Assembly: GCA_023231475.1 (NCBI GenBank)
Contig: JALJEE010002077.1
Span: 1 to 61,308 of the forward strand
Reading direction: 5' to 3'
Source of the DNA: Seison nebaliae
Lineage: Eukaryota
Length of the DNA: 61,308 bases
Below, one piece after another: positions 6,054-50,449 of this stretch; the first letter of the stretch is position 1, and every line of letters begins with the position of its first letter. The notes below the pieces were generated by a model. That model made no database searches. It was given only the letters and a program-made list of their open reading frames with translations, and was not told the origin of the DNA. Made by a program: the position numbers and the translations under genes.

Positions 6054-6741
6054 ATGAATTTTGAAGATGAAGTGTCTTCGGATTCAAGTAACTCGAATTC
6101 AATCGAATCAAAAGTGAATTATTTTAAGAATTCACCTCCACTTCTCACTTATCCACACAACATTTCACAAGCGAACGATGACACTCATTCTGAAATCAAG
6201 AACCCAACTAGAGAAATGGAACTGTTGAATGAGGAAATGAAAGATTTAAGAAATGTTCTCTATGAAAATTTCCAAAAATCGGCACTGATAATCACAGAAA
6301 TTTATAAGAAAAATAACGTACCCTACTCTCAATTCCAAGAGGCGGCTACCGCCATTGCTACTTTATACACAGGTTAATATTCTTCTCTTGAACACTTTTC
6401 CTTTTATTCAATGAGATTTATGCTGTTCAGGAGGAGCGAACGCATTAGCCGAAGCGCTGGAGAAAGGAAAACGTCTCGGTGAATTAAAACACAGATTAAA
6501 GCACAACCCAATTACTCATTCTCGTGGACGGAAAAAGAAACTATGTAAGAATGTTAATCTTAATTCAATCATTTTTTTCAATAATTTATCTCCAATTCAG
6601 TTCATCAATTCCCCAATGAAAGTCAGAGCTGCTCCCAAACGACATCTGAGTATGACGGACACCTTCGACAAAGCGGTGAGCGATTGTACAAAGAACAGAT
6701 GGGATTGTTACAGTCAAATGAGAAAGAGAATGAAAAGATAA
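6054..6741 (+). CDS. HAPSTR1: HAPSTR1/C16orf72 (DUF4588)-like protein; introns 6373-6430 and probably 6553-6600
   Basis: The duplicated motif LYENFQKSALIITEIYK / YSQFQEAATAIATLY resembles the FQNSATAVAQLYK / FQNAATAVTNLYK repeats of C16orf72 (from memory). The C-terminus RKRMKR* is basic. The second donor is ambiguous. Confidence 0.65.
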
Positions 6742-7064
6742 AATTTGATATATATTTTTTTTAGATTTTATTTTATAAATATATTCACTTTCCACAATTC
6801 AACTCATCTCCTTCTCTCCTTTTCTTTTTTTTTCTCTTCACATTAAAAACTTTCGAAAAAAGATTATGACGAGATGTAAATTTAAGATTTAAGTAACATA
6901 ATATTTACTTCTTTCATTTATTGTTCCCAAGGAAATATTCATCATCTTCCATTATTTATTTCATTTCGTTTTGAGATAATAGTTGAGATTTTGAATAGTC
7001 ATTTCCTTTTTCAATTAACTTCACACCTTTGGGCGAATTGTGTTTAATTTCTGTTCATTTTTAG

Positions 7065-10000
7065 AGTATTCTCAACAGAAGATTATAATAAGACAAATGC
7101 ATCATAACGATGATGGATTGAAATTTTCAGAAAATTTTTTAAGGAGAACGGAAGATTTAAAGGTGATTTTAGAGGAAGTGAATTCACCAGAAATCAATTG
7201 GCATTTGAGTGAAGAATACATATCGTCCGTTTTCGACTTGAACACAAAATATGAAAATGTATTATTCGTATACAGTTGCGATGACAAGTTCATTGGCTGT
7301 GTTTGTTCAGGAGAGATGTTCGAAAATGAAATAATATTTGGAATGTTACTCATTCGTCGATCTCATCAAAGTCGTGGAATTGGAACTCTATTATTAAAGA
7401 AATTCTTTCAGAAAATCGACAAGAAGAAAAGTTATTTATTTCTATTTTGTAATTAGATGTTTATGGAGAAGTGGAAGATGTTCCAAAAATAGATATATAT
7501 TGAGAAATAAGTTCATTTCAAATTCGTTAAATTGGGAATGGGAAAATGATTTTTAATTCTTATTCTCTTCTGTTTCACTTCAATTTTTTTTATTTTCCAA
7601 ACAAACAACTCTTTGAGAGAGATCTATAAAAATTAAAAGTTGCTAGGCAGGAGACGATTTGTTGTTGAATATCGTTCGGAACGGGAAATTGGGAATCATT
7701 CCTTCCACCATGTCTTTTAGGAGATAATTACTGAGATCATAAGTCAGGAAGAATGATCGAAGTGCTTTCCTCCTCTAAGTATTGGGTGTTGAGGAAAGTT
7801 CGTGCCAATTATGTTTATTCGTTATGGTTTGAAAAAAATACTTCTCATTGTTATCCTCGAATGGATATGATGCAGAAGAATAGTGGAGAAGATGCACTTT
7901 TCTCTCGTCTCAAAATGAAATCATATCAACCATGTTTCACTGAAGATGGTAAATTGCAACCGAAAGAAAAACGTCGTCCTGATTTAAATCACAAACGAGT
8001 CCAACATATCGATCCACATTATGAACCAACACCAGAAAGGAAAGCTCAAGTAAGTTTTGATCGTGGATCAGATAAAGGAACGATAGCTGCATTTGATGCG
8101 AATAATAATAATAATAATGAAGAAGGTGAGAAGAAGGATGAGGAGGATGATGATTTGTTATCGTCATTAGATGAGATTCAAGCAGAATGTCCATGTGTTG
8201 CTTATGTACATATGGCAACAAATAAATTATTGATACCAGAAGATCATTTAGATAATATTCCTTTATTTCTCGATAAACATTTCCCAATGATGAAATGTCA
8301 GGGAACTGTCGATGTGTTTATCGGAGTGTTTGGTGTATTTGAAGGATCAAGTGTTTATATTCTTTTAGGTATAGGGAAGAATCGAATTGCAGAATTTCGT
8401 GGTCATTCTATTAATCGATTGAACGATATAATTATTCTTTCAATTAATGACGATAATGATTTATCATCAACTTTCGATTTCCATTTTTCCTATTGTTCAA
8501 TTTGTGATAAAGGACAAAAGAAACCAGGAAAAGCGAAGTTGAAAGGACATGCTGCTTTCTTTTCTGCACTCTCTGGATCATCACAAAGAAGAAAAAAATT
8601 AGAAATAAAAATTTTAACAGATGTTCTCAAACTTTTCAATGAATTATCTTGTTTCTACTATTGTCCTACATATGATATCACCACTTCTTTACAACGTCAA
8701 CAATCCAATCTTTATATATCTCACAAAGAGCCTTGGGAACGTGCTGATGATCGATTTTTTTGGAATAAAGCATTACTCCAATGTTTCTTCTCTACTAATA
8801 ATATTAAGAGTTGGATCGTTCCAATAATTCAAGGATTCGTCTCTCAAGCATCACTCGCTTATCTCAATCGAGATAATACGAAACGTCATATGTATATCAT
8901 TCTCATTTCACGTCGTTCACGTTATCGAGCTGGTATGAGATATCGTACGAGAGGTACAGACGCTAATGGACGAGTAGCAAATTATGTGGAAACTGAACAA
9001 ATTCTTTATATTCCTGAACATAATGTCATAACGTCATTTGTAGTTGTTCGTGGTTCAGTACCATTATTTTGGAAGCAACCTGGAAAAGATTATCGTCCAA
9101 TTGTTTTAATGCAGAAAACACTTGTTGAGAATACGAGTGCATTTGAAAATCATTTCGATCGAGAGATCGATTTGTATGGTGATGTTGCCGTTTTGAATTT
9201 GGTGGACCAAGTGGGCAAAAGTGAACCACGATTATTTTATGATTTCCTTTATCACGTCCTCCGATACAATTCCCAACATTTACATTTTGTGGGATTCGAT
9301 TTTCATGCTGAATGTAAAGGATTACGATTCGATAAAGCTATTATGGTTGTCGATTATTTAAGAAGTAAATTAGAATATTGGGGATTCTTTTGGTTGTCAG
9401 GAAATCGTATAAAGAAAATCCAACGTGGTGTATGTCGTGTTAATTGTGTGGATTGTCTCGATCGAACGAACGTTATGCAAATGACATTAGCTAAATTTCT
9501 TTTATTGTTCACTTTCAAAAAATTGGGAGTTGTGAGAGATAATGCTCATTTCCCTGAAATTTATCGTCGAACATTCCAACGAGTTTGGGCAGATAATGGA
9601 GATGCCATTTCAAATATGTATGCAGGTACAGGTGCTTTGAAAGCTGATTATACAAGAACGGGACGAAGAAAGATGCAAGGAGTAATGCAAGATGGAATGA
9701 AATCAGTTAATAGATATGTAAATAAATTATTTCGAGATGCAGCGAAAAATGCAGCTATAAATGCATTAACAATGGCACATTTGTTAACATTCGAACGTGT
9801 AACAACTGATGATAAGAGATTTAATGGGAAAGAAAGTGATGCCAATTCTGTTTTGTCTGGTCGTGAACAAGATCCGATTGATTGGAATCAAAAAATGAGT
9901 GTCTTCCACAAAGTGATTGGAAATGCTCAGAAACTATTAGCGAGTGTTGATGAGAAAGCGAAAACGTATCAATTGTGTGATCCTTCAGATAAACAATATT

Positions 10001-11894
10001 ATGTCGTTATGGCTGATCGAGCAAGAAATGAAAATGATAAATGTGATATATCTGTCTTCTTCTTACGAACTAAGAAGAAAGATGATGATAATCCATCACA
10101 TCTTGATGTTGATTCAAATAGTGATCTAACAGCTTCATCCGATACTTATTCAACAACAACTACTTATTCTGATATCAATGATACGGAAAGTAAAGTAGTA
10201 CCAATGAATAATAATCAGAATAATTTTTTTTGGAATTTGAACAATTCAGCGAAATCTCATAAGAAACAAAAAGGGAATATTATCGGAATAACATTAGATG
10301 TTATCGATCCGAACATTATTGTACTAATCTCCAAATCACACATTCTCGTCGCCACCATTTCTATGAGGAAAACGAAGAAATGTAAACAACATATTTGCGA
10401 ACCAGAATTCATATCGTTAGAATCTATTACAGAATTGAACATCATTTATTCACCGGAAGTCAATTTTTATTCTTGTTATTCTTTATACATTTCTTACGGA
10501 CCGAAAAAAAGTTTTCATTTAGAATGTGCCAATTATCGACCATTTCTTTTTGAGAATACCGTTTTCATGTTCTATACCGATACTGATGTCAAAGATTATA
10601 TTACATCATTAGTATGTGCAATTTATAATTCGGTATTTAATTTAACTGGAAAAGGAATTACCATTACTACAGGTAACCAACGTATTGATCGAACATATTC
10701 ATTTATTCATTCGCAACAACTTCTCTTGACGAAAGGTCTTCAAAACGAAATCATTTCTGAACCTGACCAATCGAGAGGACAAGGATCGAATGTATTCGAT
10801 GATGTTCTTTCACGTAGTCGTTTATCTATCGAACTAACAAAATTAGGTAACAAGTTCAGTCAATTGAAAGAAAGTATTTCAAATAGATTAGGAGGGAATG
10901 CTAATCAGGATGATGCAGCTTCCGATAGACCGAATGCATCGGTTGCTGATAATGATCCCGATCATTCAGCAGCAGATGACGAAGATAATGATGATGATGA
11001 TGATAAAAAAGAAGGTGTAAAAAAAACTTGTCCTCTACCATATCTCCAGAACATTAAACAGAATTTATCTAAAACCAGGACACGTGTTACCATAGTAACG
11101 GAAGGAAAGAGTCAGAGTGGCGCCTATGCAACTTTGCAACTATAAAACTTTTTTATTAATAATTTTTTTGTCAGTTATTCTCATTTCGAAGAAATTTTTT
11201 ATTTTATTTATTTTTAATTCCTTCTCTCTCAATCTCATACAATTGCACAGATATTGGAGCGTTTGCTATTTATGATAAATTATCATTTTATGAAAGCAAA
11301 TTCGATTTACGAATAAAATCTTCAATTTGTTTCGAATGTGTCGTGACACTATGTCAGGAGAAACATTTAGAACGAATTGAAGTACTTCTAAAGAATTCTT
11401 TAAATGATATTGGTTCGATAGTCGAAGTGAAAAACGAAAATGATTTAAAACTCTTATTGGAATATGACGAAGAGATATTTCCGGGCTGTACTGATTATCG
11501 GAGAGAATACATCTCAATATTCTCGAAATTACATTGTGTCAAAGTATTTATTATCATCAAAAAAGACAAGTCCATCGGAGGTTATGCCATGGGAATTGTA
11601 GACAACAAGTTTAGCATAAGAATGACACCGGTCTATGGAAATAGTGCGAAAGAACAAACATGTTTAATGTTAATGGGAATGAAGGAAATTATTAAATTGA
11701 ATCCCATTGATGGGAGATGTTTTTTCACTTACTTCCAAAACAATCAACAATGTCTAAAGATCTTACAATCGGAGATTGGAGATGATTTTAAAGTCAATTT
11801 AAAAATGCAACAGATCTACAATAATCGAATTCCTAAAATGGAGAGCAATCCATTTGTTTTCTCTGTCTCTTCGTTGGATACGATGAACTTTTGA
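7065..11894 (+). CDS. Two-domain GNAT acetyltransferase (N-terminal GNAT plus YitH/Acetyltransf_18-like domain); exons ~7065-7430 and 11251-11894, start uncertain
   Basis: Motif A HQSRGIGTLL lies in the first part. A phase-1 intron 7431-11250 (gttatt...gcacag) gives IDKKK-N-IGAFAIYDKLSFYESKFDL (motif-B-like) and continues in frame into LLEYDEEIFPG..R...GYAM...MTPVYG. Confidence 0.7.
7753..11145 (+). CDS. INPP5F: SAC-domain phosphoinositide phosphatase, INPP5F/Sac2-like, intronless (1130 aa)
   Basis: RFFWNK, SRRSRYRAGMRY...VANYVETEQ, RGSVPLFW, catalytic RVNCVDCLDRTN (CX5R) and NGDAISNMYAGTGALK. The RAGMRY and RVNC motifs and the long C-terminus favour INPP5F over SAC1. Confidence 0.8.
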   Translation: MIEVLSSSKYWVLRKVRANYVYSLWFEKNTSHCYPRMDMMQKNSGEDALFSRLKMKSYQPCFTEDGKLQPKEKRRPDLNHKRVQHIDPHYEPTPERKAQVSFDRGSDKGTIAAFDANNNNNNEEGEKKDEEDDDLLSSLDEIQAECPCVAYVHMATNKLLIPEDHLDNIPLFLDKHFPMMKCQGTVDVFIGVFGVFEGSSVYILLGIGKNRIAEFRGHSINRLNDIIILSINDDNDLSSTFDFHFSYCSICDKGQKKPGKAKLKGHAAFFSALSGSSQRRKKLEIKILTDVLKLFNELSCFYYCPTYDITTSLQRQQSNLYISHKEPWERADDRFFWNKALLQCFFSTNNIKSWIVPIIQGFVSQASLAYLNRDNTKRHMYIILISRRSRYRAGMRYRTRGTDANGRVANYVETEQILYIPEHNVITSFVVVRGSVPLFWKQPGKDYRPIVLMQKTLVENTSAFENHFDREIDLYGDVAVLNLVDQVGKSEPRLFYDFLYHVLRYNSQHLHFVGFDFHAECKGLRFDKAIMVVDYLRSKLEYWGFFWLSGNRIKKIQRGVCRVNCVDCLDRTNVMQMTLAKFLLLFTFKKLGVVRDNAHFPEIYRRTFQRVWADNGDAISNMYAGTGALKADYTRTGRRKMQGVMQDGMKSVNRYVNKLFRDAAKNAAINALTMAHLLTFERVTTDDKRFNGKESDANSVLSGREQDPIDWNQKMSVFHKVIGNAQKLLASVDEKAKTYQLCDPSDKQYYVVMADRARNENDKCDISVFFLRTKKKDDDNPSHLDVDSNSDLTASSDTYSTTTTYSDINDTESKVVPMNNNQNNFFWNLNNSAKSHKKQKGNIIGITLDVIDPNIIVLISKSHILVATISMRKTKKCKQHICEPEFISLESITELNIIYSPEVNFYSCYSLYISYGPKKSFHLECANYRPFLFENTVFMFYTDTDVKDYITSLVCAIYNSVFNLTGKGITITTGNQRIDRTYSFIHSQQLLLTKGLQNEIISEPDQSRGQGSNVFDDVLSRSRLSIELTKLGNKFSQLKESISNRLGGNANQDDAASDRPNASVADNDPDHSAADDEDNDDDDDKKEGVKKTCPLPYLQNIKQNLSKTRTRVTIVTEGKSQSGAYATLQL

Positions 11895-11994
11895 TCTAAT
11901 AAAATTTTAATTTTTTTGATAAATTTAATTTAAAAGTAAGATAAATAAGAAAATGATTAAAAGAATTAAATTAAGTTTATAATAATTTACCGGA

Positions 11995-13398
11995 TTAGTT
12001 TTGATAATTGAATAAATTCTGGAATGAATTATAATCGATCGTATTGAATTGATTAATTAAATTTTTGTCGGAGGGAGATGAATCGGTCGATTGAATTCCA
12101 CTGCTTTCCGATGAATAACTGATGTTTTGTGGAGTGTTGAATTGATAATAATTCATTAATGGAACTTGAGAGATTGGTGATGATGAATCTGATTGTTTAG
12201 TTAGTTTCAAATATTTGTTCGATAATTGATCATAGATAATTCCTTCGTCAGTTGATTGATCATTCTCTTCTTCGTCAAGTTTCCTCTTCCGTTTCGGTGT
12301 TATATTCTCTTTGTTAATTTGACGAATTGCTTCATCCACCATTTTAATTTGTTGACTACTATTCATCTGGATTTGTGGCGGTTGGGGAACAGTGGACGAT
12401 GATGATGTCATTGGAGCAGACGATAATCGTTGAGATTGGGGAGGTTGTTCACCAAAAGATTGGACGTTTATCTGATTCAATAACTGTTGAGCTGTTAACA
12501 TTTCCAAATATTGATTATTGTTATTGTTGTCGTTAGAAATTGGGAAATTATTAAAATTTGATTGATTTCCGTTATTTCCTTGAGATTTTCCGTCATTCGC
12601 TATTGCTTGTTGAGAGAAGAAAGCGACATTCAATAACGAAGAAAGTTGTTGTTGTTGTGCTTGTTGTTGATGGAGAAAAAGGTTTTGTTGTTGAGATTGT
12701 TCCACATTATACTTTCGAATTTTCGCTTTAAAATGACGTCGATTAATTCGTTTTTCCGCAAAATCTTCATAAACAGCCGGATGGATCGACCAAAAGTTAC
12801 CCTTCCCATTACAACCTTTTCCCGCTTTGATGAAACATTCGTTGAGTGATAAATTATGTCGAACCGAATTCCTCCAAGCAATATTTTTGCATTTTGCGAA
12901 ATATGAATAAGTCGTTTCTAAAAATCCATAAATCTCATATAATTGAAGACATTTCGTTTTTGATGCAATGATCGCTTCAGTAATCAATTCCAAGAAAGAT
13001 TTTGCTGGTTTCTTATCCACATCCATTTCTGCCACATCTGCCGATACTGATTCTTCTTCATTAGTTGATGGTTGTTGTTGTTGTTGTTGCTGCTGCTGCT
13101 GCTGTTGTTGTTGTTGTTGTTGCTGATGTGGTTGTTGCTGTTGTTGAAAATCACTGATTGATTTAGATAATTCTCGTTTGATATTTAACGGTCCGCTATT
13201 GTTTGTACTTGATAAATTATTGATCAAATTGGTATTTGTTTGTAAAACATTATCAGCAGTATTGGAATTGTGAGGAGAATTATTCGGTTGTTGGACAACA
13301 TTCTGATCAGTGTCACTAATCAATGAATTTTGATAGTACCAAAGATAAGTATTCATCAATTGTTCGTACTGTTCTCTTTCTGATTGAGATTGTGTCAT
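11995..13398 (-). CDS. FoxQ2: Forkhead transcription factor, FoxQ2 class
   Basis: Forkhead domain KPAKSFLELI...WRNSVRHNLSLNECFIKAG...NGKGNFWSIHP carries the FoxQ2 signature. Intronless, with Q/N-rich flanks. Confidence 0.85.
   Translation of the reverse strand: MTQSQSEREQYEQLMNTYLWYYQNSLISDTDQNVVQQPNNSPHNSNTADNVLQTNTNLINNLSSTNNSGPLNIKRELSKSISDFQQQQQPHQQQQQQQQQQQQQQQQQQPSTNEEESVSADVAEMDVDKKPAKSFLELITEAIIASKTKCLQLYEIYGFLETTYSYFAKCKNIAWRNSVRHNLSLNECFIKAGKGCNGKGNFWSIHPAVYEDFAEKRINRRHFKAKIRKYNVEQSQQQNLFLHQQQAQQQQLSSLLNVAFFSQQAIANDGKSQGNNGNQSNFNNFPISNDNNNNNQYLEMLTAQQLLNQINVQSFGEQPPQSQRLSSAPMTSSSSTVPQPPQIQMNSSQQIKMVDEAIRQINKENITPKRKRKLDEEENDQSTDEGIIYDQLSNKYLKLTKQSDSSSPISQVPLMNYYQFNTPQNISYSSESSGIQSTDSSPSDKNLINQFNTIDYNSFQNLFNYQN
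13072..13146 (-). repeat. Coding CAA/CAG poly-glutamine tract in FoxQ2
   Basis: (ttg)n/(ctg)n on the + strand, encoding QQQQQPHQ-rich runs. Confidence 0.9.
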
Positions 13399-19542: not shown

Positions 19543-22500
19543 TTACATATTGAAAATTTCTTTTGTGGCAAATCGGAGGAGTGTCTCCGTCACGAGAATA
19601 GCTTTATTCCTCAAAGAAATGCAATCATCTGACTCGAAATAAAATCGATTATTATCATCTTTATAGAGTAGTTGATGGTAGACAGAAAGTGAATCGAATT
19701 CATTAATTTCCTTCGATTCGAACGTGGATGTTTGGAGAATGAATGTTCGTAAATAATGAATGTTGATATCGGTTGGAGGTCGTAAGATAATCCAATGGAT
19801 TTGCTCACAGAATAAACGCATAAGAATCGAATTATCGTTAAAATGGATTTTGATGAGTCGTTGGAATAACTCGCAGAAACGACATAAAATTAATCGATCG
19901 ATAATTTGAAAGTGGAAAAAACTTTTGAAAATTCGACAAAGTTTTTTATAAAATTCTTTCGTCGGTTTATTGTCGTTTTGAATTTGTTGTAAGAGATTGA
20001 AGTAGTAGATGGATGGTATGATGGGGAGAGCAATGGAAGAGAAATATTGAATTGTTATTCCAATGATCTCCCATCTCATGACATTAATATCTCCCACTAA
20101 CTCGATTTCATGATTGAGAAAAGTTAGAAGATCATCATGATGATTCTTGTCGATTTCGAAGGAATGGTAAAGAGCTAAACGATTCATTTCAATTAAGAAA
20201 CGACGGATACGTCGATTTGGTTGGAATCGTTGAGATTGGAAGTGTTTGAAATTTTCGATAAGTTTCATTTGAAATGTGAGAGTGAAATGGAAAGGATGAT
20301 TCGCATACAAATAATTGATACATTGTTCGAAGAATGTTAATTGATAAGGGAGATGTGCAGATTTATCATTATCTTCGATATGAAATCGATAGATTGAATA
20401 GTGAAATAAATATTTGGATGATATTCGATGAATCTCGTCAGCTATTTGATTCATTCGATCATCTAATTTATCTTCATCTTCTTCTTTTATTTTTTCCTCT
20501 TTAGAGACATTTGGATAATGATCAATATTCTTCAAATCCATATCAGCTGGAAGATATGGTGAATGATTAAATATTTGTTTGAAGGATGTGCAGGAATAGA
20601 ATGAGAGAATATTCCCAATGAGATACGATTGAAGAACATCGACATAAATGTTGAGATTCTGTTGTTGAATCGTTTCATCACTATCATCTAAGGTACAAGC
20701 AAGAAGTGTTATTGATGTCTGATGAACGGACGATAATAAAGGTGAATATTGTTCACTCATCAAATGATATTCTTTCATTTCTCTCGTTCGATGATCGATC
20801 ATATATGAGAGATTTGGATATAATCGATCTTCGTGAGAAACTTGACTCCGAAGTTCTTTCTCTTTTTTCTCTTTCTTTGGCACTAAATGATTATTATGTC
20901 GATGTTTCAACAATCGATAATTATAATGAGAATGAGATAAAGAATGGAAGGATAATTCATTAAAAATGATTTGAATCTTCAATTCTGTTCTTTGTGATGG
21001 TAAGACATCGAAGAAAGCTTTCTTCACATCAATATCTTTTCCGTCCACTTTGAATTTAAGATATAAAGGAAATTTGTTAAAATTTAAAATATCTTCAGGT
21101 AAAACTCCTAATGTTTGAACATATTGTTTAATGTCTTTCAAAATTGATTTTCTCGTAAGTCTCATCGGTTCAACTAAATTCAATAGATTCCTAATCAATG
21201 ACGCTCCCATCGATAAAATATATATTCGAATAGGACTACTGAATGATGTGTTATGAACTTCGATATTTCGTTCGAATAACCGATATGGAGTAACATTTGA
21301 GAAACAGATGTTGGAAGTGGATAGATGAAATAAATCATTCTCTTTCTCTAATTGATATTGAGAGAAGATTAAATCATATCCTAATGCATCGACATCGCGA
21401 AATCGACAAGAATAATATCCGAATATCGGTTTATGATCACTCTGTCTCACATTCATCGCATTCTCATATAAGAGACAACGAATCAAATCATTACGATGTC
21501 TAGTGTCATAAGAATATTGATGAAAATCGATTGATCGATAAAGAATTCGATCAGTCCATGATGGTGTTCTCTTCTTTTCACTACTATCCCAATGATCGGT
21601 ATGATTGTCAAATTTGTATGTTGGTAGAAAATCGATATAAGACTCTTGAAACGGTTTCGAAAAGACCATTTCATTTTGACGTTCCCGAATCAATTGATCA
21701 TAATTCTTTAACAAGAAATGATAATTTTCTTTCCATTTCAATTTCTCTTTAATATCATCAATCATCAAATTTGGTGATGACAATTTCCCATCTAATCGAT
21801 AATTCAAATCACCAAATACAAATAATCGTTCGTGTTGTAATGCACTTCTGGAAGCGGAATGATTTCGTTGGAAATTAATCCAAGCGAAAATCGACCGATA
21901 ATCCATTTGTCTTCGTCTCAAATTTTCAAGATGAGCAGCAAAATGAACACAAACGAAACAGAAGGAAGTGAGACAAACATCGAAACGAATTGCTATCGCA
22001 CCTTTATTTCCATAACAATGTTTACCCGTTCCCAAATAGTCGGTGGAGAGATCATTGATAAATGGTTTCAATCGTTCACGAACATATATTACTTCCATTA
22101 AACCAACTTTTCTGATATGAATCAATTTAACGAATCGATAACCGGAATGAGAATAACGGAATAAATCCTCCAAAATATTCAACCAAGATAATTCTTGAAG
22201 AACTGTAGTGCGAACAGAAGATAATGGAGACATATCGATTTCTTGGAAACCGATGACAATAATATCTGGCATCATTGTTGTGTTGCCTTCTGGTGATTTA
22301 TGAAGGAAAGTGAACCATGAATATAATTCATTAATATTTGGAGCTTTTTGTTCGTTCACATTATACGTTCCAATAAACAAAAGTAATTCACTTTCGATCA
22401 TATAAAATGATTGTCGTTCTAATAAATATTGTTCGATCGCTTTCAAATCAATTTCTGTCAATTGTTGAGGTTTTGGTGAATCGATGGATCGAGTTGGTGA

Positions 22501-24483
22501 TGTTGATGAGGTGCTATCAAAATAATCATTCGTATTTCCACAAACCTGTCTCAATTGATAAGTGGAGAAGGAATTCATCGGATTCTTATAAATCGTTTTT
22601 TTCCGATCTGGTATTTTAGGTGAACGAGTTTGAAACTTCAATCTTTCTCGTTGTGATTTTGATGAGAATTGTTGAATTGCCGTACAAAACGAACAATAGA
22701 TGAGATCATTTAAAGTATAATAAAATTCTCCAAAGAATTTCTGAAATAATTGATAATTCATTAGAATGGATTTAGTCGTCAATTGACATTTCAATTCGTT
22801 GAGATCAACTTCATTTTTTATAGTTTTCTCAATTTCAATTTTCTCTTCTTGTTTATTCACTTTCTCAATATTCTCATTTGGTGATAATTTTGAATAAGTC
22901 GAATTGAATGCACGATGCATCTTCTCTTCAAATTGACGACGACGTCGTCGAATACCTTCTCGTTTCAATTGATTCATTTCATCCAAATATGAAACTTTCT
23001 CCGATGACGAACAAGATGATGCGAGTGATGATGTTGTAGATGAGGATTGTAATTGCTCTAATTCTAATCGTTTCCAAATAAATTTTGAACATGATTCAAT
23101 ATCAACGATTGGATCATGCATCTTCTTATAATTCGATAACCAGAAAGTATCGATATTATTTAATGAATATGAATCATCATCCTCCTCATCATTCCCATGA
23201 TCATTCTCTAAATTCATATCATTAGGACTTTCATGCATGTTATTCCCACCATTCACCATTCGACTATTATTCTGATTTTCATGAATATTTTGTGATAAGA
23301 AAAGATAAGTTCGTTGGGGAATATGTTTCGAATTGAATTGAATATTCTTAAAAATCGAAATTAATTGATTGCAATCCTTCTGATGAATGATACCAAATAA
23401 ACCGCCAAGACGATCATGAATTATCTTTATGAACCTTAAACTATCACCTTTCTTTCCATTCATTAACGACAGTTCACTCAAATGTTTCTTGAAATCTTTT
23501 GATCGATTTGTTTCTTTTTGTTCTTTCAAATATTTCTTTGTCAAAACATCTCCGATCGTATAAGAGAATAATCGATCAATTGGTAAAGTTAATTCCAATT
23601 CATAAGTATTAATAGAATATTTATAAACGAAAATACCAGAATGTTTATTATCTTCATTCGTCACAATCGTCAACAATAACGATGTGATGGATGAAGATCG
23701 ACTAACGAGTTTGTGTAATCGTTTCAAATTGATCTTTCGTCTTTTATTCATCGTCACATTCTTCAATTTTTTCACTCGACAAAATTCATTATACTTTGTT
23801 GGAATTCTCATGGGAACTATATTCATCGATTTATTATAAATTATTTTCCATTTCTTTTCATTGGGAAAGGATAAATTTGAATTATTCTCTTTCACTTCTC
23901 TCATCTCTTCTTTCTTATTCATATTATTTATAAGATTATTATTACTATTAGTCGATTTCTTCAATTTCTTTTTAATTGATAAACTCGTTTTATTTTGTAA
24001 TTTCGAAATGAAATTATTCAAAATTTTCGGAGTTCTCATCGATCGTCGATGTGATGCTTTCTCTTCAATCGGTTTCTTTTCTTTCTCACTTTTTTCTTTT
24101 TTCTTCTTCTTCAACTTCAAATCACTTCTAGGAACGAGAAGTATTTGAATTGTCAATTCGAATGACAAATTATCACTGAGTTTTGGTAGTCGTCCTTTCT
24201 CCATCAATTTCGTCGGCGGAGATTTCACATCTTTCTCCGATGGAATATGTCGTATATCGTCCGTTTCTATATCGGAAATGATATCGAGATCAGATGAAAT
24301 GTCATCTTCATCATCATCATCGTCCTCAGTTTCGTCATCATCAAAATCTTCGAAATCTGTTTCATCATCTTCGAAAGACGATTCGTTATCATCATAATTT
24401 TCATATAATTCCTTCATCGATAATTGATCAGTTATCGATTCATCGACATTCAATGAATTGGTGGAGTTGTTTCTTGCGAACAT
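19543..24483 (-). CDS. OCRL/INPP5B-like inositol polyphosphate 5-phosphatase, intronless (1646 aa)
   Basis: 5-phosphatase motifs GTYNVN, GFQEID, GNKGAIAIRF, HFAAH, FGDLNYR, PTYKFD, PSWTDRILY and SDHKP, followed by ASH-like and degenerate RhoGAP-like regions. Confidence 0.85.
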   Translation of the reverse strand: MFARNNSTNSLNVDESITDQLSMKELYENYDDNESSFEDDETDFEDFDDDETEDDDDDEDDISSDLDIISDIETDDIRHIPSEKDVKSPPTKLMEKGRLPKLSDNLSFELTIQILLVPRSDLKLKKKKKEKSEKEKKPIEEKASHRRSMRTPKILNNFISKLQNKTSLSIKKKLKKSTNSNNNLINNMNKKEEMREVKENNSNLSFPNEKKWKIIYNKSMNIVPMRIPTKYNEFCRVKKLKNVTMNKRRKINLKRLHKLVSRSSSITSLLLTIVTNEDNKHSGIFVYKYSINTYELELTLPIDRLFSYTIGDVLTKKYLKEQKETNRSKDFKKHLSELSLMNGKKGDSLRFIKIIHDRLGGLFGIIHQKDCNQLISIFKNIQFNSKHIPQRTYLFLSQNIHENQNNSRMVNGGNNMHESPNDMNLENDHGNDEEDDDSYSLNNIDTFWLSNYKKMHDPIVDIESCSKFIWKRLELEQLQSSSTTSSLASSCSSSEKVSYLDEMNQLKREGIRRRRRQFEEKMHRAFNSTYSKLSPNENIEKVNKQEEKIEIEKTIKNEVDLNELKCQLTTKSILMNYQLFQKFFGEFYYTLNDLIYCSFCTAIQQFSSKSQRERLKFQTRSPKIPDRKKTIYKNPMNSFSTYQLRQVCGNTNDYFDSTSSTSPTRSIDSPKPQQLTEIDLKAIEQYLLERQSFYMIESELLLFIGTYNVNEQKAPNINELYSWFTFLHKSPEGNTTMMPDIIVIGFQEIDMSPLSSVRTTVLQELSWLNILEDLFRYSHSGYRFVKLIHIRKVGLMEVIYVRERLKPFINDLSTDYLGTGKHCYGNKGAIAIRFDVCLTSFCFVCVHFAAHLENLRRRQMDYRSIFAWINFQRNHSASRSALQHERLFVFGDLNYRLDGKLSSPNLMIDDIKEKLKWKENYHFLLKNYDQLIRERQNEMVFSKPFQESYIDFLPTYKFDNHTDHWDSSEKKRTPSWTDRILYRSIDFHQYSYDTRHRNDLIRCLLYENAMNVRQSDHKPIFGYYSCRFRDVDALGYDLIFSQYQLEKENDLFHLSTSNICFSNVTPYRLFERNIEVHNTSFSSPIRIYILSMGASLIRNLLNLVEPMRLTRKSILKDIKQYVQTLGVLPEDILNFNKFPLYLKFKVDGKDIDVKKAFFDVLPSQRTELKIQIIFNELSFHSLSHSHYNYRLLKHRHNNHLVPKKEKKEKELRSQVSHEDRLYPNLSYMIDHRTREMKEYHLMSEQYSPLLSSVHQTSITLLACTLDDSDETIQQQNLNIYVDVLQSYLIGNILSFYSCTSFKQIFNHSPYLPADMDLKNIDHYPNVSKEEKIKEEDEDKLDDRMNQIADEIHRISSKYLFHYSIYRFHIEDNDKSAHLPYQLTFFEQCINYLYANHPFHFTLTFQMKLIENFKHFQSQRFQPNRRIRRFLIEMNRLALYHSFEIDKNHHDDLLTFLNHEIELVGDINVMRWEIIGITIQYFSSIALPIIPSIYYFNLLQQIQNDNKPTKEFYKKLCRIFKSFFHFQIIDRLILCRFCELFQRLIKIHFNDNSILMRLFCEQIHWIILRPPTDINIHYLRTFILQTSTFESKEINEFDSLSVYHQLLYKDDNNRFYFESDDCISLRNKAILVTETLLRFATKEIFNM

Positions 24484-24999
24484 CTTCTGCTTCTTCCCAC
24501 TCCTTTATCCTCAAAATTCAAAATTGTTTTTCATTCTAAAAATTCAGGGAAATTTTATTTGGCAAAAAATATAAATTTTTTCTCTTTATTCGTGCATCTA
24601 TATATACGAGCTGTATGTATACATACAAGCACACATCCACTACAACTATTTGTACATGTAGACGAGTGTTTGAGAGGCGACGACCTATTATACGCAAATC
24701 TATTTATTAAGTCGATGTAATACAGTCAATATACATTCGAATATTAATAAAGAATTTCGATAAAAGAACTTCTTCCAAAATTTTAAAATTGGATATTTAA
24801 TATAATTCGCATTAGGATGAGATTAAGGAAAATTAAATGATTCGGATGTGTCATTAGTAATTTTAGAATCTAAGAAAGTTATATGAAACTTCAGATGGAA
24901 TTTCTCCTAATACCTTTTTCCCATTTTCTCTTTTTTTCAGTATAACAGACAGATAAACTTCAATTTTTCTCCTCACAATTTTTACTTATCAGAATTCTC

Positions 25000-31636: not shown

Positions 31637-34157
31637 TCAATGTTTCGACTGTTTAACCATTTCAAGAAGTGTCGGATGATTGCTCGCTAAAATTAACTTA
31701 TACTCCGTTTGAATTTGTCTTCGACCATCGGCTAATGCTTGACTATAACATTTCTGCTTTTTTGCCCCAACATCTCCTTTTGTCGAAATATATTTTTCTC
31801 TTATAAATTTCGCATTGGCCTATAGTTAATTCGAATTAGATCAAATATCTCAAATAAAAGAAACAAGAGAACTTTGAAATCGCGCAATTTCATCGGATCA
31901 CAATATTCGGCCGGTATTGGAGAGTCGGTTGTAAGGAATTTCAGGTTGTTCCTTCTTGCTTCCTTTTCTTTCTCCACATCCGCCGGCTTTTTTGCAGATT
32001 GTGATTTAGATAATCCTGAAGGTGCTCCTATTTTTTTTGAAATCGGAGGTTTCCTTATGGGCAATTGGGACAATTTTCGTCCACGCTCAGATATTGGTTT
32101 CCCTAATTGTGAAGTCGATTTTCTTACTTGAGATGGCTGTTTTCGAAAGTTAGAAGGTGACATTCCAAGTCTAGATCTCGATGTTCCCAGTTGAGATGTC
32201 GGTTTCCCCATTTGGGATATCGGTTTTCCCAGCTGAGACGTCGGTCTCCCTCGTTGAGATACAGATCCTCCTAGTTGTGATGTCGGTCTCCCTCTTTGAG
32301 TTGCAGATCCTCCTAGTTGAGATGTCGGTCTCCTTCGTTGAGATGCAGATCCTCCTAATTGAGATTGTGGTCCTTTCCGTGGAGACATTGATGTTCTAAG
32401 TCGAGATGCAGTTCGTGCTCCAAGTTGAGACATCGGTTTCCCAAACTTAGATGATGTCTTTTCCAATTGAGATGGTCCTCTTATAGAAAAAGATGTCCTA
32501 CTTCCAAACTGTGAATTTTTTCGAATCGAATCTGAATAAAATTTCTTATTGGTATCGAAAGACGGCTTCAAACTTGCATTGCCAATGACAAGTGAAGTTG
32601 TATTTCTCGTACTAGATTTTGTAGAATTTCGACTTACCGGTTTGGCTGTACTTTTCATGGTACTACTATAATCCTTCGTTCGCAGATCAGACTTTGATAC
32701 ATTTATGGACACTTTAGAATATTTCGTCCCCTTATTTTTACTCGAATCGATGGATTCTCTTTGTTCATTCCTTTTATCTTCTGCCGGTTCTTTAGTTTTC
32801 ATTTTCTTTTTGTCGTCGTCAATCTTCTGTTTAACATCATCTGGTTTAGGACTATTAGTGGAAATAGAGTCAATATCGGTCTCTTCACTGAAATTCTCTA
32901 TATAACTAAGACTATGCTTTTTGGACTTTCCACGTCCATAGCCCATGATCGATAACGTTCTTCTTGTTGATTTTTCACTTCGGGCAAGAGTGCTAACACT
33001 CTCCTTTGCAATTATCTAAGAAATTTGTATTAGGTTATATTTTCAGAGTGATTAACATTATTGATCAACGGATTGCGTTTCATCGTATCATCTTCATAAT
33101 ACAAATCTCCTAGTGCACTTAGTGCTGTAATACGTGCTTCGGGATCAAGTTTCAAACAAGAAAAAATTAATTTTGACACATTTCCTAATGGTCTCAAATA
33201 CTCATTCACCGATTTACCACTTGTTAAATCAAATTTTAGAGCATGAATCAAATTTGTGTTTCTCAAATTCTTTTGCATGTGAACAGGTAACGGTCCTGTG
33301 ACAAATAAATAAAATATTTATAATTCTTAATAATTACACTTAAATAATGATGAACCGAATATTTTGAGAATTTGATAAATATGATCGATTGCTGATGTGG
33401 CCTCTATCAGATATTTCGAGGTACATAATCGATAGACTATGATACCCATTGCCCAGATATCGATCTCACTGAAAATCTTAATAAATTTATTTATTATTCT
33501 GAAAAGAAGAACCTTCCGTATCGATAAACGCCAACTAGAACTTCAGGTGCTCGATACATACGTTCCGTAACATATTCCGTTAGAAATCCTTCACTTCCTT
33601 TTCTGGAATAATACAATCCACTCAACTTCACTAATTTATCGGGAAACATAAATATGTTTGTACAAGTGACATTCCGATGCATTATCTGAATATTATGATA
33701 AATGATTAAATTATGAAACGATTTGAATGAAAATGAAAATTATTAAAAATTAATAATTTAACTAACACCATTTTCATGTAGATATCCCAAAGCAAGAAAT
33801 AATTGATAACTAATCATACGACAATCCAATTCAGAGAAATCAATTGTCCCTTGACAATCTTTATACAATTCCTCCAATGTTCTATGAGGTAATTCGAGAA
33901 TAAGATACAACATATTATTCTCAATAAAAGAGTCGAGTAATTTTTGGATATTTCGATGATTTATTTCCTTAAAGAAACTTCACGATAACGACAATAAGAG
34001 AAGAAACTTGCATAATTCCGATATTACCTTGATCGGCCTCGAAAGCCAATTCAAATTCGTAAATTTCTACTAAAAGTTCAGTTGTCAAATTAACACCACG
34101 AGATCGGAGAACCGTTTCCTTAATTTTCTCATCACTAGTAATCTTATAATTGAACAT
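31637..34157 (-). CDS. CDKL/CMGC-like pseudokinase with long basic Ser-rich tail; introns 33968-34007, 33686-33766, 33469-33512, 33296-33355, 33016-33056, 31820-31872
   Basis: The spliced frame gives NHRNIQKLLD, YLHENG/IMHRNV, TEYVTERMYRAPEVLVG, IDIWAMG and CLKLDPEARITA, and joins in frame to the 31801..32946 ORF. Confidence 0.8.
32180..32375 (-). repeat. Coding 42-bp (14-aa) tandem repeat SQLGGS(A/V)xQRGRPT
   Basis: agatcctcct recurs at 32263, 32305 and 32347, a period of 42. Confidence 0.9.
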
Positions 34158-34508
34158 GTTCTCTCGAAATGTTCGTGATTATCATATGGTTAATAATGAA
34201 GATAATTTTAATAATAAAATGTGTATTAGAATTATCGTCAGTAGAATAAAATTAGAATGAAATGAAAACGATCAAGGAGAAAGTTACTTTGAATTGGTCT
34301 GACTGAAAAAATTAAAATTTTGATTGAAATTTTATTATCAAAACGTTTTTTTATTTTGTTAATTAAATTTGAATTGAATTATCAATATTTTGTACATCTA
34401 CCATGGAAATGGGGCAAAGTTGAGTGTGACAGATGAGAAAAATAATAAATTGAATTTAATAATTAAAATGTTAATTTAAAATTTCTCTGTAAGAAGTTTT
34501 CTGCTCGT

Positions 34509-42606: not shown

Positions 42607-43039
42607 TTTTTATGCACTTTCCAAAATCAGTCAATCTCATCATCATCATCATCGTCACGAATATCATCATAATCTCGAGATATTTATTCATATCTCCCAC
42701 TCTCAATCATTCTTCATATCATCTCACAATTATCAATCATTCTTTATTCAACTTTCATTCACTCAACAACAACAACAACAATAATAATACTTTATTGCTA
42801 TTTTCCGATATTTTCAATTAGGATATGTGGAAACCAATTTCTTTAATTCTCAAAAAAAATTATATGTGATGGATTTATATAATGGAATTCTGATGTGTCT
42901 CATATCAACAACATTTCAATAATTTTCATTTCAATTTATTTCAACAAACAATTATATATTTCTTTTCTTGGACAGTCAAATTGATTATAGAAAATATTTC
43001 TTTCGTAAATCATCATTTGTGTTTTTACAGTAATCGCTT

Positions 43040-43070
<31 letters not shown>

Positions 43071-45119
43071 TATACTCATTGGGTTTTCTGACAACACCGA
43101 TTAGTGTAATTGAGAAGAAATTTCAAAAAACCTTTTCTATTGATTCTTCTTAATTTTATCTCAAATAAGTTGACAAGAAAACAATTTCTTTTGTGCATGA
43201 CAACTAATCTCCATTTAATTTATATCATATCAAAAAAACAAAACAACAACAACAACAACAATCCGAGTAACAATAATCGAATTTTATATTTCATCAATTG
43301 CATCTCACTCACTCATTCTCAAATCAAATGAACATTTTATTCTTTTTTCTCCATATTCTATCGCCTTCATCGATCAATTAAACAACAACAATAACACCAG
43401 TAAGTATTCAATAAATTTTTTTCAAGATTCGAAAGTTAGAAAGATAATGAAATTGTTCGAATTCAGAATGTGGAAATAATGTATTCGTCAATTTTTTAAA
43501 ATCTTTTCATATTTCGTCACTGAAGATGATAGTCGTGATCAATTTGAAGATTTCAGAAGAATAGTTCAATCAATTTCAATATTGGAGTCTCGTCCCCTCT
43601 CTCCCTACCCTCAGAGATGAAAATTTTGATTTTGATTAAACATCAACTGAATGATTGGATTATGTAACGAGTGTCATTATTATCAGCATCATCATCACAT
43701 TGACCAGATTGGATTCGATTGTCTAAATTTCATTTAATTCGACATTCCATCCCCCTCCAACATCAGAATCATGAACGACAGTTGAACGTTTGAGATGAAG
43801 AAATTTATTATGAAAATTATTTAAAATATAATTTATTTCAATTTTTTTTCTGACAATTATTTTCCTTGAAAAAACAATGTCATCCATCAATTTATGACGA
43901 TTTCAATTTTAATTTATTCTAAAAGTTTCTCCTATTATATTGTTATTAGTGAATGTTTCTTTTTTTCTTGTTTATGCTTCTTCATTAATTTAATTTCCCG
44001 TCAATTTCTTTTATCAATCCATTTTTCTTTTGGGAAGTCATCACGAAGAAAGAGAGTCTTCTCGTTCCATATGGAATCTAATCGCTCGAACACTCAAAGA
44101 GTGATATCATCATTTGAAAACAATCTCAAAAGAAAAGACAAGAGAAATCTAATTTTTATCCTGTCATCGCTCAGCATATTTATTCTCAATTACAGGAGAT
44201 TAAAAACATCAGAATCCATTTAAATTCCATTCAATATCATCCTTTCATATCCAACATCGGCAAATAGCACCAGACGACGACTTATTTTTGGAAGGAATGC
44301 GAATAAAATCTTCATTCTCTATTTATTTTTATGGGAAAAGAATATCCATCACCATTATCAATCCTTCAACAATTATTGAATTCTTTTCAAAAAAAAAATA
44401 ATTTTTTCTTCATTTATTTTCCTTTTCTGAAAAGAAACTTTTCATCATTTTTCAATATTTCAATTACTATTTATTATCTTCTTTCAACAAAATTTCATTC
44501 ATCGGAAAAACAAATAAAATTGAATAGAAAATCATTCGAAATCAATTTGACATCATCACTTCTCCGATGTCTCATCAATCGATTCAATCTTCCTTCCTCC
44601 TCCCTACTCTACCGATTGTTTTGTTCGATTATCTCCACAACTGTCTAGTTAAAAAACGGAGAGAATGTTTCCGGAAATTACGAATCACAAAGAAAGGAAA
44701 TTTTCATAAAGAACATTCCTAAGAATTCGTAATAAATGAAAGGAAAGGAGAAATATCATGTTGTAAGCAATCGTCTTCCATCTCCATTTCCACATTACGT
44801 GACAGATGATTAGATCTTCTCCCAAATACCAATCGATCAATTCAGAAGACATGCAATTGCCATTGTCCAGATGTGAATTGATATAAATTGTATCAACATC
44901 CATTCACATCGATGTCCTAATAAGAATAATTTAACATTTTCATTTATTTCCTTTCTCTTTCGATTTCTTTTAGTCGATTGCATTTTAGTTAGTTCGAAAA
45001 TTTTTGTTCAACAAATTATTGAAATGAATAAAAACTTATCATCATATTTTTTGATATCCAAATAACTATTCGGACATTTCTTTGAATAAATTTTTTAGCA
45101 GCTGTCGCATTCTTACGCC

Positions 45120-45133
45120 GTTGTTATAGCAAC
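45120..45133. promoter_or_regulatory. Candidate RFX X-box GTTGTTATAGCAAC
   Basis: Matches the 14-nt consensus GTHNYY-AT-RRNAAC exactly. Confidence 0.35.
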
Positions 45134-46049
45134 GTGAGAATAAGACATTCAAAAATTTTGATTGTTTTTTGAAGTTATCAAAGGATACCTTCACTTAATT
45201 ATTCGGAATATTGGAATTATAAACAATTCATTAATGAATTATTTTATCGCACAATCGAGTGGTATCGGATCGAAAGGAAAAGTTTCGATGTTATTTAGGA
45301 GAAGTGGAAACCTTCTCTCATTTGTGAGCGGGCCATCGCCACTCGGAATTTCCGATAAAGAATTAATTGATTTCATTCAAATAAATATGAATATGAGTTC
45401 TGATAATGAGTGGAATAAATGTGAATTGAATAGAAATTTCTTGAGAAACATACGTTTTCCTGTTAATTCTTCGGACTAATCTTTCTTTATTCTTCTTCGT
45501 TCCATTCAATCTCATTCTCAATTCTTCTACAATTTATATTCAATTCATCGATAAACAATTGAACAAGGACAAGAATTTTATTCGCCATTCATATATTTGT
45601 AATTAGATATCCGTTCTTGCTATCTTTTTCTTCCATCATCATTCCATTAGCATGATTAGCTGGAATAATTCTCGTATAATTCCTTCTATTCAATAACTTC
45701 TCTTATTTTGTCGGAAGCGCCTCCAAAAATCCTTTCCATTTCACTTTCCTGATTATATAACACATGAAGTATGATCACATATCTATCGATGTTTATCTCT
45801 TGTTATTAAGGACATTCAATTATCTTCATCTTAATCTATCTACTTCTATCCTTCTACTTTTTTCCATTTACATGAACGAATTCATCGTCAAATTCTATAA
45901 ATTTACTTTTTTTTCTCATTCACTTTTCTCAATTAACCCCCCAACATATATTCGTTCAATCTCCTCATATATCGAATCGTAAAAGAATTAATTAACATTT
46001 TTTAAAATAATTCTTTCCATCACATGATCATTGTCGAGTATTCCGGGTA

Positions 46050-46800
46050 GAACAATTTTTCAGTTTTAGATAAGCAAAATAATTTAGGAAAAGTAAGAAT
46101 GATTGACCGAAACTTCCAACAGAATTTCATAATAAACTTTCATTCGAACCGTTCGACTTATTATTTCACCTACTAAATTCGTCCCGTGCTACAGTTCCAT
46201 TAGTCATTCCATTAAATTTAGTTGCATAAGTCATCGACGAATTACGTTAAGTCGAATGTTGTTTCTTATGTGGAAATTCTCCATCAAATCCATCAACATT
46301 AATATGGCGAGGAGAACCGATAAATGTTAAAGTAATGTCTGAATTGGGGGAAAGCGAAGACATAGAATCAAAAGGAGAAGACAAGTGTGTACCATATTCC
46401 TCCAAGAATCTGACAAGCGACGATTGTTGATTTGAATTCCCCTAGTGAATTAGAAAGCAAATTGTTTCTATTCGTGGTTAGAAGAGTTAAATTTTCGCTT
46501 TTACCGCAAATACGATGACAGATGATTAGTAGTCGAAAATCAATCGATTTGCAAGATTTTCCGAGTTAAGACGATGAGAAAAGAAGTTCGAAAGAGAACA
46601 ATCATCTGCATCTCTATAACTTTCTCCTTTTTCTCTCCCGTTCATTTTCCGTTTTATAGGGAATGGCGAGAAATGAATTCATAAGAAATGATTCGGATGC
46701 AAAATTGTGTTAAATAGAAGAAATGGGACTTTCCTTTCGTAAATCCATTAGTAGCCGCAAATGACGAAATCTCATACGCCTACGAAGGAATTAGTCATAA
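46050..46800 (-). mobile_element. Decayed LTR-retrotransposon integrase core relic
   Basis: FIGSPRHINVDGFDGEF (G.P..I.SDNG.QF-like) followed by GMTNGTVAR (SNG.VER-like). Confidence 0.4.
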
Positions 46801-49800: not shown

Positions 49801-50449
49801 CCATTTTACCAATCATCCCAAACAGATAGAATGTATTGAGTATATGGTTGGTTAGCTGCATCCTTTTTTCTGTTATCAACACCCTTCCGACTGAAATAGA
49901 TAGGTGAATCATTAGATATGGTTCGTGGTTGTAGGTCTGAGGTTATCACTCCATGTTTACTGACACATGTGCTATGTCGAATTGGAGAAGAAAAACTGAA
50001 TAGTAGGCGCGAAAATAGATCGAATAATCTGAATTGAATCAATCATATTAAAATTATACCTTATTATCTCCAACCTGACACTGTTGAAAAAGGAATCATC
50101 AGACTTCTTGCCAAAACATCACACGAACGTTTCATTTTGATTCATTTTAGATAATATTTTGTGCAATATCTCAGTTGGATCTATAGGTTACTTATAGAGT
50201 AGTTATTCAAGTTTCGAGTTTAAAAGACTGAGAATTTTGCAGGATTATTTTAAGTAATGACAGTCAAACAATTCTTGATAGAAATGGACGAGAAATAATC
50301 TTACGAATTGATGGTTATCCATTAATAAGTGATTATTCTGATTATTCTTTTAAATATCTTTTTATTATCTTTTCCACTTCCATAATAATCCGATGTTTAT
50401 GGAACATCATAAACTATTATCTGTCCACTGTAGAGTATGCACTATTTTC

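What the first reader, a model, noticed from the sequence alone, without database searches (positions are those of the whole stretch)
7065..11894. Intronless INPP5F-like gene nested on the same strand inside a 3,820-nt intron of a GNAT gene
Seen: the ORFs on either side of INPP5F-like are two halves of one GNAT protein. A GTT donor at 7431 and a polypyrimidine-CAG acceptor at 11250 join in matching phase and rebuild a motif-B-like segment. This intron is about 80 times the local norm. There is no AATAAA between the nested stop (11145) and the acceptor, which could allow host read-through. Established: nested genes are more often antisense. Inference: either a retrocopy inserted into a short intron, with mutually exclusive expression, or the halves are trans-spliced.
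Basis: partly seen in the sequence, partly recalled or inferred. Interest (0 to 1): 0.75.

Follow-up and report, generated by a model that had tools for sequence, protein, structure and literature searches.

The report
Phosphatase gene inside an acetyltransferase gene
In the tiny marine rotifer relative Seison nebaliae, a 3.3-kb lipid-phosphatase gene sits on the same strand between two halves of a small acetyltransferase gene, which are likely rejoined by splicing out a 3.8-kb intron; nested genes of this kind are known, but here the public gene model is probably wrong.

Summary
The layout is real. ORFs 7097-7430 and 11251-11894 are the two halves of one 325-aa YitH-like tandem GNAT. Joined in silico, they align to a 43-sequence family profile from position 52 to 285 of 289 with no gap at the junction, ranking 1 of 620 alternative joins; 0 of 1000 shuffles reach the score. 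A SAC2/INPP5F-type ORF fills 86-89% of the 3,820-nt gap, 78 times the local median intron (49 nt). The organism is Seison nebaliae. NCBI's model instead fuses Sac2 to the second half through a GTG donor, whereas all 28 local introns checked start GTT, as 7431 does. Diverged low-depth contigs resume matching exactly at the 11249-11250 AG. Most likely this is a cis-spliced long intron with a nested gene; the splice itself is inferred. Retrocopy origin, the missing-AATAAA argument and trans-splicing are unsupported. Two decoy acceptors outscore the real one. Same-strand single-exon nested genes are a known class.

The parts
7097..7430 (+). GNAT exon 1 (111 codons plus 1 nt): front of the first GNAT domain with motif A; lacks the end of the domain
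   Evidence: PF00583 positions 16-86 of 116, E 1.5e-6; YitH profile 51-104; weak top PDB hit 3ddd_A, E 0.12
7431..11250 (+). Inferred 3,820-nt phase-1 intron, GTT...CAG
   Evidence: donor score 8.4 within the range of local donors (0.3-11.5), acceptor 4.0 (local range -3.5 to 11.6)
7455..7456 (+). Decoy AG 26 nt from the donor, shorter than any of 28 local introns; use would give a truncated 126-aa protein
   Evidence: score 9.5; product length; adds under 1 bit to the profile score
7505..7584 (+). Non-coding stretch kept at 90% in the diverged low-depth copy; candidate promoter or 5' end of the nested gene (inference)
   Evidence: X4 record 8 and X5 record 12, 8 differences in 80 nt; no Rfam match
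7753..11145 (+). Uninterrupted SAC2/INPP5F-type phosphoinositide phosphatase ORF (1,130 aa from ATG 7753, 1,094 aa from ATG 7861)
   Evidence: PF02383 E 4.7e-74; best homologues named SAC2
9445..9468 (+). Intact Sac catalytic CX5R(T) motif
11117..11119 (+). GTG donor used by the NCBI fusion model KAI3382435.1; the last in-phase GT before the Sac2 stop; probably not a real donor
   Evidence: score -11.1
11173..11174 (+). Decoy AG after a T run, the highest-scoring acceptor in the intron but out of frame with exon 2 (144-aa product); the T run may instead be part of the Sac2 3'-end signal
   Evidence: score 14.4
11251..11894 (+). GNAT exon 2: end of the first GNAT domain plus a YitH-type second GNAT domain; first Met only at codon 113
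   Evidence: Atlas top cluster PF18014, score 0.94; profile 130-285, 10.6 bits; diverged copy matches from 11249 on
11898..11903 (+). AATAAA just after the GNAT stop; likely the host poly(A) signal, possibly shared with Sac2

Best explanation
A SAC2/INPP5F-type phosphatase ORF lies on the same strand between two halves of a YitH-like tandem GNAT acetyltransferase, and the halves are likely joined by ordinary cis-splicing of a 3,820-nt intron to give a 325-aa enzyme. Shown: the layout, the in-frame join, the colinear family match and the donor type. Inferred: a transcript started upstream of 7097 runs through Sac2 to the AATAAA at 11898, and the GTT donor at 7431 skips the too-close AG at 7456 and the out-of-frame AG at 11174 to reach 11250. 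Also inferred: Sac2 has its own start inside the intron (near 7505-7750) and ends either at a weak signal near 11145-11175 or at the host's poly(A) site, with exon 2 as its 3' UTR. Having no internal introns would spare the host most mis-splicing. Sac2 likely moved into a formerly short intron before the two Seison lineages split; the route (retroposition with loss of the parent, or a DNA move) is not resolved.
For: The joined protein matches profile positions 52-285 of 289 without a gap at the junction: 27.0 bits against 15.0 for exon 1 alone, rank 1 of 620 joins, 0 of 1000 shuffles; hhalign global probability 96.1. The cut falls inside the first GNAT domain and exon 2 has no Met until codon 113, so neither half looks complete alone. 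Both halves are stop-free (chance about 2e-4 and 7e-8 at local composition). The donor is GTT like 28 of 28 local introns (background GTT among GT is 0.41). Low-depth diverged contigs in X4 and X5 match the Sac2 end, diverge over 129 letters and resume at exactly 11249, the acceptor AG. Of 7 listed differences in exon 2 (12 in that piece), 5 are at third codon positions and two residues change. In Drosophila, 72.5% of same-strand nested genes are single-exon (PMC3814207, passages).
Against: The acceptor at 11250 ranks only tenth of 203 AGs by a matrix trained on short introns; 11174 (14.4) and 7456 (9.5) score higher and both would truncate the protein. Twelve in-phase GTT sites lie in the Sac2 ORF and one (10475) scores above the real donor, so chimeric splices are possible. 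No other multi-kilobase intron was demonstrated in this window. The public model reads the locus differently. Exon 2 alone has no Pfam hit even at E 10 and only 14.6% hhalign probability.
Confidence: 0.7

Rival explanations
1. The NCBI model is right: Sac2 is spliced at 11117 to exon 2, giving a 1,335-aa Sac2-GNAT fusion, and exon 1 is a separate 119-126-aa fragment (a dead remnant, or a partner that completes the fold in trans).
For: Deposited protein KAI3382435.1 has exactly this structure and uses the same acceptor. A 134-nt intron is closer to the local norm than 3,820 nt.
Against: Its donor is GTG (score -11.1; 0 of 28 local introns), and it is simply the last in-phase GT before the Sac2 stop, as a gene predictor would choose to rescue an orphan exon (inference). 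None of 119 other SAC2 hits carries a GNAT Pfam, and none scores above -1.1 bits on the YitH profile. The junction residues fit exon 1, not SAC2.
Confidence: 0.1
2. There is one shared promoter: a single precursor is either cis-spliced to make the GNAT mRNA or receives a spliced leader at an acceptor inside the intron (7617 or 7720) to make the Sac2 mRNA, so each precursor yields one product or the other.
For: Only 322-430 nt separate the donor from the Sac2 start. Acceptor-like sites lie at 7617 and 7720 (scores 5.0 and 4.3). Leader trans-splicing is listed for rotifers in general (PMC12460157, passages).
Against: Seison is not mentioned in that paper (0 occurrences). 7572-7617 could be an ordinary 46-nt 5'-UTR intron. 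A conserved non-coding block at 7505-7584 fits a separate promoter equally well.
Confidence: 0.09
3. The two GNAT halves are joined in trans: a short exon-1 transcript is spliced to exon 2 carried on the tail of a Sac2 read-through precursor.
For: It would avoid a 3.8-kb intron in a neighbourhood of 49-nt introns, and exon 2 lies only 105 nt behind the Sac2 stop.
Against: The halves are colinear, on one strand and in order, so cis-splicing suffices. The intron ends show no special pairing (duplex -37.5 against -32.2 +/- 4.1 kcal/mol; 18 of 200 shuffles as good), and there are no long inverted repeats between them.
Confidence: 0.05
4. The Sac2 insertion killed the GNAT gene and both halves are recent remnants, or the region is misassembled.
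For: Strong decoy acceptors would divert splicing. The protein is very diverged from its family.
Against: Both halves are full length and stop-free with intact GT and AG. A diverged copy keeps exon 2 from the AG on with mostly third-position changes. Contigs of two study codes cover the order of parts.
Confidence: 0.06

Closest known systems
Same-strand nested genes of Drosophila (PMC3814207, passages; PMC5174743, passages) and mammals (PMC11694760, passages)
   Same: A complete coding gene lies inside an intron of another gene on the same strand, and its coding region is a single exon. About 29% of fly nested genes are same-strand and 72.5% of those are single-exon; in mammals the two orientations are broadly similar in number.
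   Different: The usual case is a small, young, often testis-biased duplicate inside a large host with long introns. Here the host coding sequence (978 nt) is under a third of the guest's (3.3 kb), the guest is a conserved enzyme with no close paralogue found, it fills 86-89% of the intron, and the neighbouring introns are 40-62 nt.
YitH-like tandem GNAT acetyltransferases (PF00583 + PF18014; PDB 3ddd)
   Same: Domain order, length (325 against about 290 aa), motif A, the DxxxF..R segment of the second domain and the C-terminal segment all align. The profile's best PDB hit is 3ddd at E 2.7e-39.
   Different: It has 13% identity to the family profile's lead sequence, is below Pfam detection for PF18014, has an insert of about 15 residues between the domains, and its substrate is unknown.
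SAC2/INPP5F phosphoinositide 4-phosphatases (activity recalled, not tested)
   Same: SacI domain, intact CX5R(T) motif, similar length, and best hits are SAC2 at 37-45% identity.
   Different: The hSac2 domain (PF12456) present in most homologues was not detected, the tail is about 100 aa shorter than the homologue median (566 against 667), and the coding region has no intron.

Membership tests
YitH-like tandem GNAT (PF00583 + PF18014) | N-terminal GNAT domain with acetyl-CoA-binding motif A | tested here: met
   PF00583 29 bits, over the cut-off of 20.7; the domain is completed only by the 11250 join
YitH-like tandem GNAT (PF00583 + PF18014) | C-terminal PF18014 domain | tested here: inconclusive
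   No Pfam hit at E 10. Atlas top cluster is 86% PF18014, score 0.94, 170 shared features. Own profile 10.6 bits, rank 2 of 201 window ORFs. A model built on the family alignment (pLDDT 80) matches tandem GNATs including 3ddd (Z 13.7, rmsd 2.8, 160 aligned), but that test is partly circular.
YitH-like tandem GNAT (PF00583 + PF18014) | Both domains in one chain of about 280-330 aa | tested here: met
   325 aa after the in-silico join, profile 52-285 of 289; depends on the inferred splice
YitH-like tandem GNAT (PF00583 + PF18014) | Acetyltransferase activity | not testable with these tools
   needs an assay
SAC2/INPP5F | SacI domain with CX5R(T/S) catalytic motif | tested here: met
SAC2/INPP5F | Closer to SAC2 than to SAC1, FIG4 or synaptojanin | tested here: met
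   Among the 119 best non-self hits the informative names are SAC2, spermathreecae or one 'suppressor of actin'; the rest are unnamed or hypothetical. No tree was built.
SAC2/INPP5F | hSac2 domain (PF12456) | tested here: inconclusive
   No Pfam hit and no match to the homologue profile there; may be too diverged
Same-strand nested gene | Whole coding sequence inside an intron that is really spliced | tested here: inconclusive
   Strong DNA and protein support; the junction itself could not be examined in RNA
Same-strand nested gene | Own transcription start and 3' end | not testable with these tools
   only hints: conserved block 7505-7584, variant hexamers near 11141-11163
Retrocopy | No introns in the coding region | tested here: met
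   Single ORF. The best hidden in-frame candidate (10475-10522) would create a stop if removed (read). A 5'-UTR intron at 7572-7617 is possible.
Retrocopy | Intron-containing parent in the same genome | tested here: inconclusive
   No second Seison SAC2 among the best 120 of 3,723 hits, limited to proteins of 601-1,915 aa; the whole genome was not available
Retrocopy | Poly(A) remnant or target-site duplication | tested here: not met
   T-rich, not A-rich, after the stop; the only flanking direct repeat is a 20-nt pyrimidine-rich pair at 85% (7549, 11210), of the kind AT-rich DNA gives by chance. Such marks decay with age.

The most novel reading that the evidence does not exclude
The locus is one transcription unit that makes two unrelated enzymes from one precursor. 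Either a 3.8-kb intron that is almost entirely the Sac2 gene is cut out to make the acetyltransferase, or a leader or second transcript is trans-spliced so that Sac2 is made with the acetyltransferase's second exon as its 3' UTR. All of this would be done by a spliceosome that reads a bare GTT donor.
Probability: 0.14. Interest if true: 0.7.

Novelty: new member of a known kind. Interest (0 to 1): 0.38.

Why it matters
It corrects a public gene model: the apparent Sac2-GNAT fusion protein of Seison is probably a prediction artefact, and a full tandem GNAT has been missed. It is also an extreme natural test of long-intron recognition. In a neighbourhood of 40-62-nt introns with only GTT as donor consensus, one intron 78 times longer must skip two better-scoring acceptors and 12 in-phase internal GTT sites, and it carries a conserved gene three times larger than its host. 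One junction assay or a look at existing RNA reads would settle it. The class itself (same-strand, single-exon nested gene) is common in animals.

Tried and rejected
No RNA holder was listed by the run search, and run X6 laid no contig; neither bears on expression. A lower-stringency comparison of the diverged copy over exon 1 was not obtained, so conservation of exon 1 and of the donor at 7431 in that copy is untested. Word-based searches with each half found nothing, nor did genome-contig and plasmid searches with exon 1. The full-library phmmer with exon 2 found only the fusion protein and two repetitive chance hits. A single-sequence fold of exon 2 failed (pLDDT 31). No Rfam family was found in 6700-12100. 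A Pfam scan of 60 of 95 short ORFs from gene-poor parts of the window, meant to reveal other long introns, gave 0 hits. A 22-nt match of another contig ending at 7430 could be chance or a paralogue and was not resolved. The motif TTCACTT lies 240-313 nt before three consecutive starts here, including GNAT and Sac2, but occurs 45 times in the window and several other start coordinates in that test were off: a hint only. No complex prediction was sent, since I do not claim that two chains bind. Literature: no paper held all of nested gene, same strand, intron, trans-splicing and operon; none held INPP5F, Sac2 and rotifer; Seison with splice site gave one lamin paper that does not describe donors; the family-name search returned noise. 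Supplements of PMC8351084 were not opened and may hold transcript mappings that bear on the junction.
Full report
What is there. The window is AT-rich eukaryotic DNA with short introns. A deposited protein that maps letter for letter to this locus is labelled Seison nebaliae SNEBB_003487 (KAI3382435.1), on a contig of 61,308 bases. Three ORFs follow each other on the + strand: 7019-7456, 7735-11145 and 11163-11894. The first hits PF00583 but only positions 16-86 of 116. The second has a SacI domain (E 4.7e-74) with an intact catalytic motif. The third has no Pfam hit, but its nearest Atlas cluster is PF18014, the second domain of YitH-like GNATs (0.94).

The outer ORFs are one protein. I collected PF18014 genes from two bacterial phyla (22 of 201 and 33 of 301 genomes had a match). 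I kept 43 of 51 candidate frames that scored over 200 bits on a first profile and built a 289-position profile; its best PDB match is 3ddd. Joining 7430 to 11251 gives 325 aa that align from profile position 52 to 285 with no gap at the junction, scoring 27.0 bits against 15.0 for exon 1 alone. This join ranks first of 620 joins of exon 1 to AGs of the window that stay open for 60 aa or more; the next five are other in-frame AGs inside exon 2. None of 1000 shuffles of the second half reaches it, and the two ORFs rank first and second of 201 window ORFs. All other nearby acceptors except the in-frame 11259 give 115-144 aa. A model of exon 2 folded with the family alignment matches tandem GNATs (3ddd Z 13.7), which is partly circular.

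Local splicing rules. I examined 34 places where neighbouring genes are interrupted and kept 28 introns in 10 genes. Six were dropped: three gave no candidate, and three were ambiguous, one of them with a GTG option. Only GT donors were listed. Lengths are 40-62 nt, median 49, so 3,820 nt is 78-fold. All 28 start GTT, with no GTRAG consensus behind it; only 3 of 28 had an in-phase non-GTT alternative within 15 nt. The donor at 7431 is GTT and scores 8.4. The acceptor at 11250 scores 4.0 and is tenth of 203 AGs; 11174 (14.4) and 7456 (9.5) score higher but truncate the protein, and 7456 would need a 26-nt intron, shorter than any seen. This is the main weakness of the model.

The public model. 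KAI3382435.1 runs from ATG 7753 to 11116 and is spliced to the same acceptor, making a 1,335-aa Sac2-GNAT fusion. Its donor is GTG (score -11.1) and is the last in-phase GT before the Sac2 stop. None of 119 other SAC2 hits has a GNAT domain. I infer a gene predictor attached an orphan exon; I could not see whether RNA supports that model.

Assembly and a second copy. Contigs from two study codes cover the order of parts. Low-depth contigs (depth 5.4 against 28.9 in X4, 3.9 against 14.6 in X5) match 11071-11123, differ over 129 letters where the window has 125, and resume at 11249, the acceptor AG. Of 12 differences in the exon-2 piece 7 are listed: 5 at third positions, 5 towards G or C, two residues changed. 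The species is reported to hold two lineages with 82% mitochondrial identity, the rarer one more GC-rich at third positions (PMC8351084: abstract, passages and section 9). The contigs fit such a lineage (inference). So the Sac2-to-exon-2 arrangement and the acceptor are likely older than that split. The same copy keeps 7505-7584 at 90%, but exon 1 was not aligned at the 90% threshold and remains untested.

Retrocopy: no close Seison paralogue among the best 120 hits, no poly(A) remnant or clear target-site duplication, and un-nested ORFs of 4,962 and 2,670 nt in the same window. Relocation is likely, its route unknown. Missing AATAAA: only 2 of 11 other genes have one within 105 nt of the stop, and variant hexamers plus a T run are present. 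Trans-splicing of halves: no pairing between intron ends beyond shuffles. Leader trans-splicing is listed for rotifers (PMC12460157, passages) but I found nothing on Seison.

Mechanism and standing. Most likely (0.7) the host is cis-spliced across the whole Sac2 gene, which has its own start in the intron and a weak or shared 3' end. Rivals are the fusion model (0.10), a shared precursor resolved by leader trans-splicing (0.09), a dead split gene or misassembly (0.06) and trans-splicing of the halves (0.05). Same-strand nesting is a known class: about 29% of fly nested genes, 72.5% of them single-exon (PMC3814207, passages), and near half in mammals (PMC11694760, passages). Typical guests are short young duplicates in long introns (PMC5174743, passages). 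The unusual points here are the size inversion, the conserved guest and the short-intron setting. Earlier scan notes held nothing on this locus or sequence. Gene names ASAH, DAPIT and kinase for neighbours, and the substrate of SAC2, are recalled and come from no call.

Noticed in passing
28 introns between window 2616 and 58761, both strands: All 28 short introns checked start GTT, with no consensus at +4 to +6 beyond T-richness (hand-picked, GT-only search, 6 of 34 regions dropped). A GTT rule in an animal may be more interesting than the nested gene. One paper search (Seison with splice site) found no description. The scan noted GTT donors before in Bonamia and other protists.
   Followed up: partly
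window 19543-24504 (-): An uninterrupted 4,962-nt ORF (1,653 aa) with an inositol 5-phosphatase-type domain (PF22669), a second phosphoinositide phosphatase gene 8 kb from Sac2.
   Followed up: no
window 6763-6792 and 7555-7584: Two 30-nt non-coding stretches where the main and diverged contigs coincide; both contain TTCACTT and lie about 300 nt before the GNAT and Sac2 starts. Possible core-promoter elements, though the motif is common.
   Followed up: partly
window 7409-7430: A different 9.8-kb contig of normal depth matches these 22 nt exactly and stops at the exon boundary; chance or a paralogous GNAT exon end.
   Followed up: no
window 42700-57300: About 14 kb with no recognised gene in an otherwise dense window; the short ORFs scanned there gave no Pfam hit.
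   Followed up: partly
window 32174-32396: Tandem repeat-like coding stretch inside the 31801-33015 (-) ORF, which seems to be the tail exon of a kinase-like gene at 33000-34180 (kinase label recalled).
   Followed up: no
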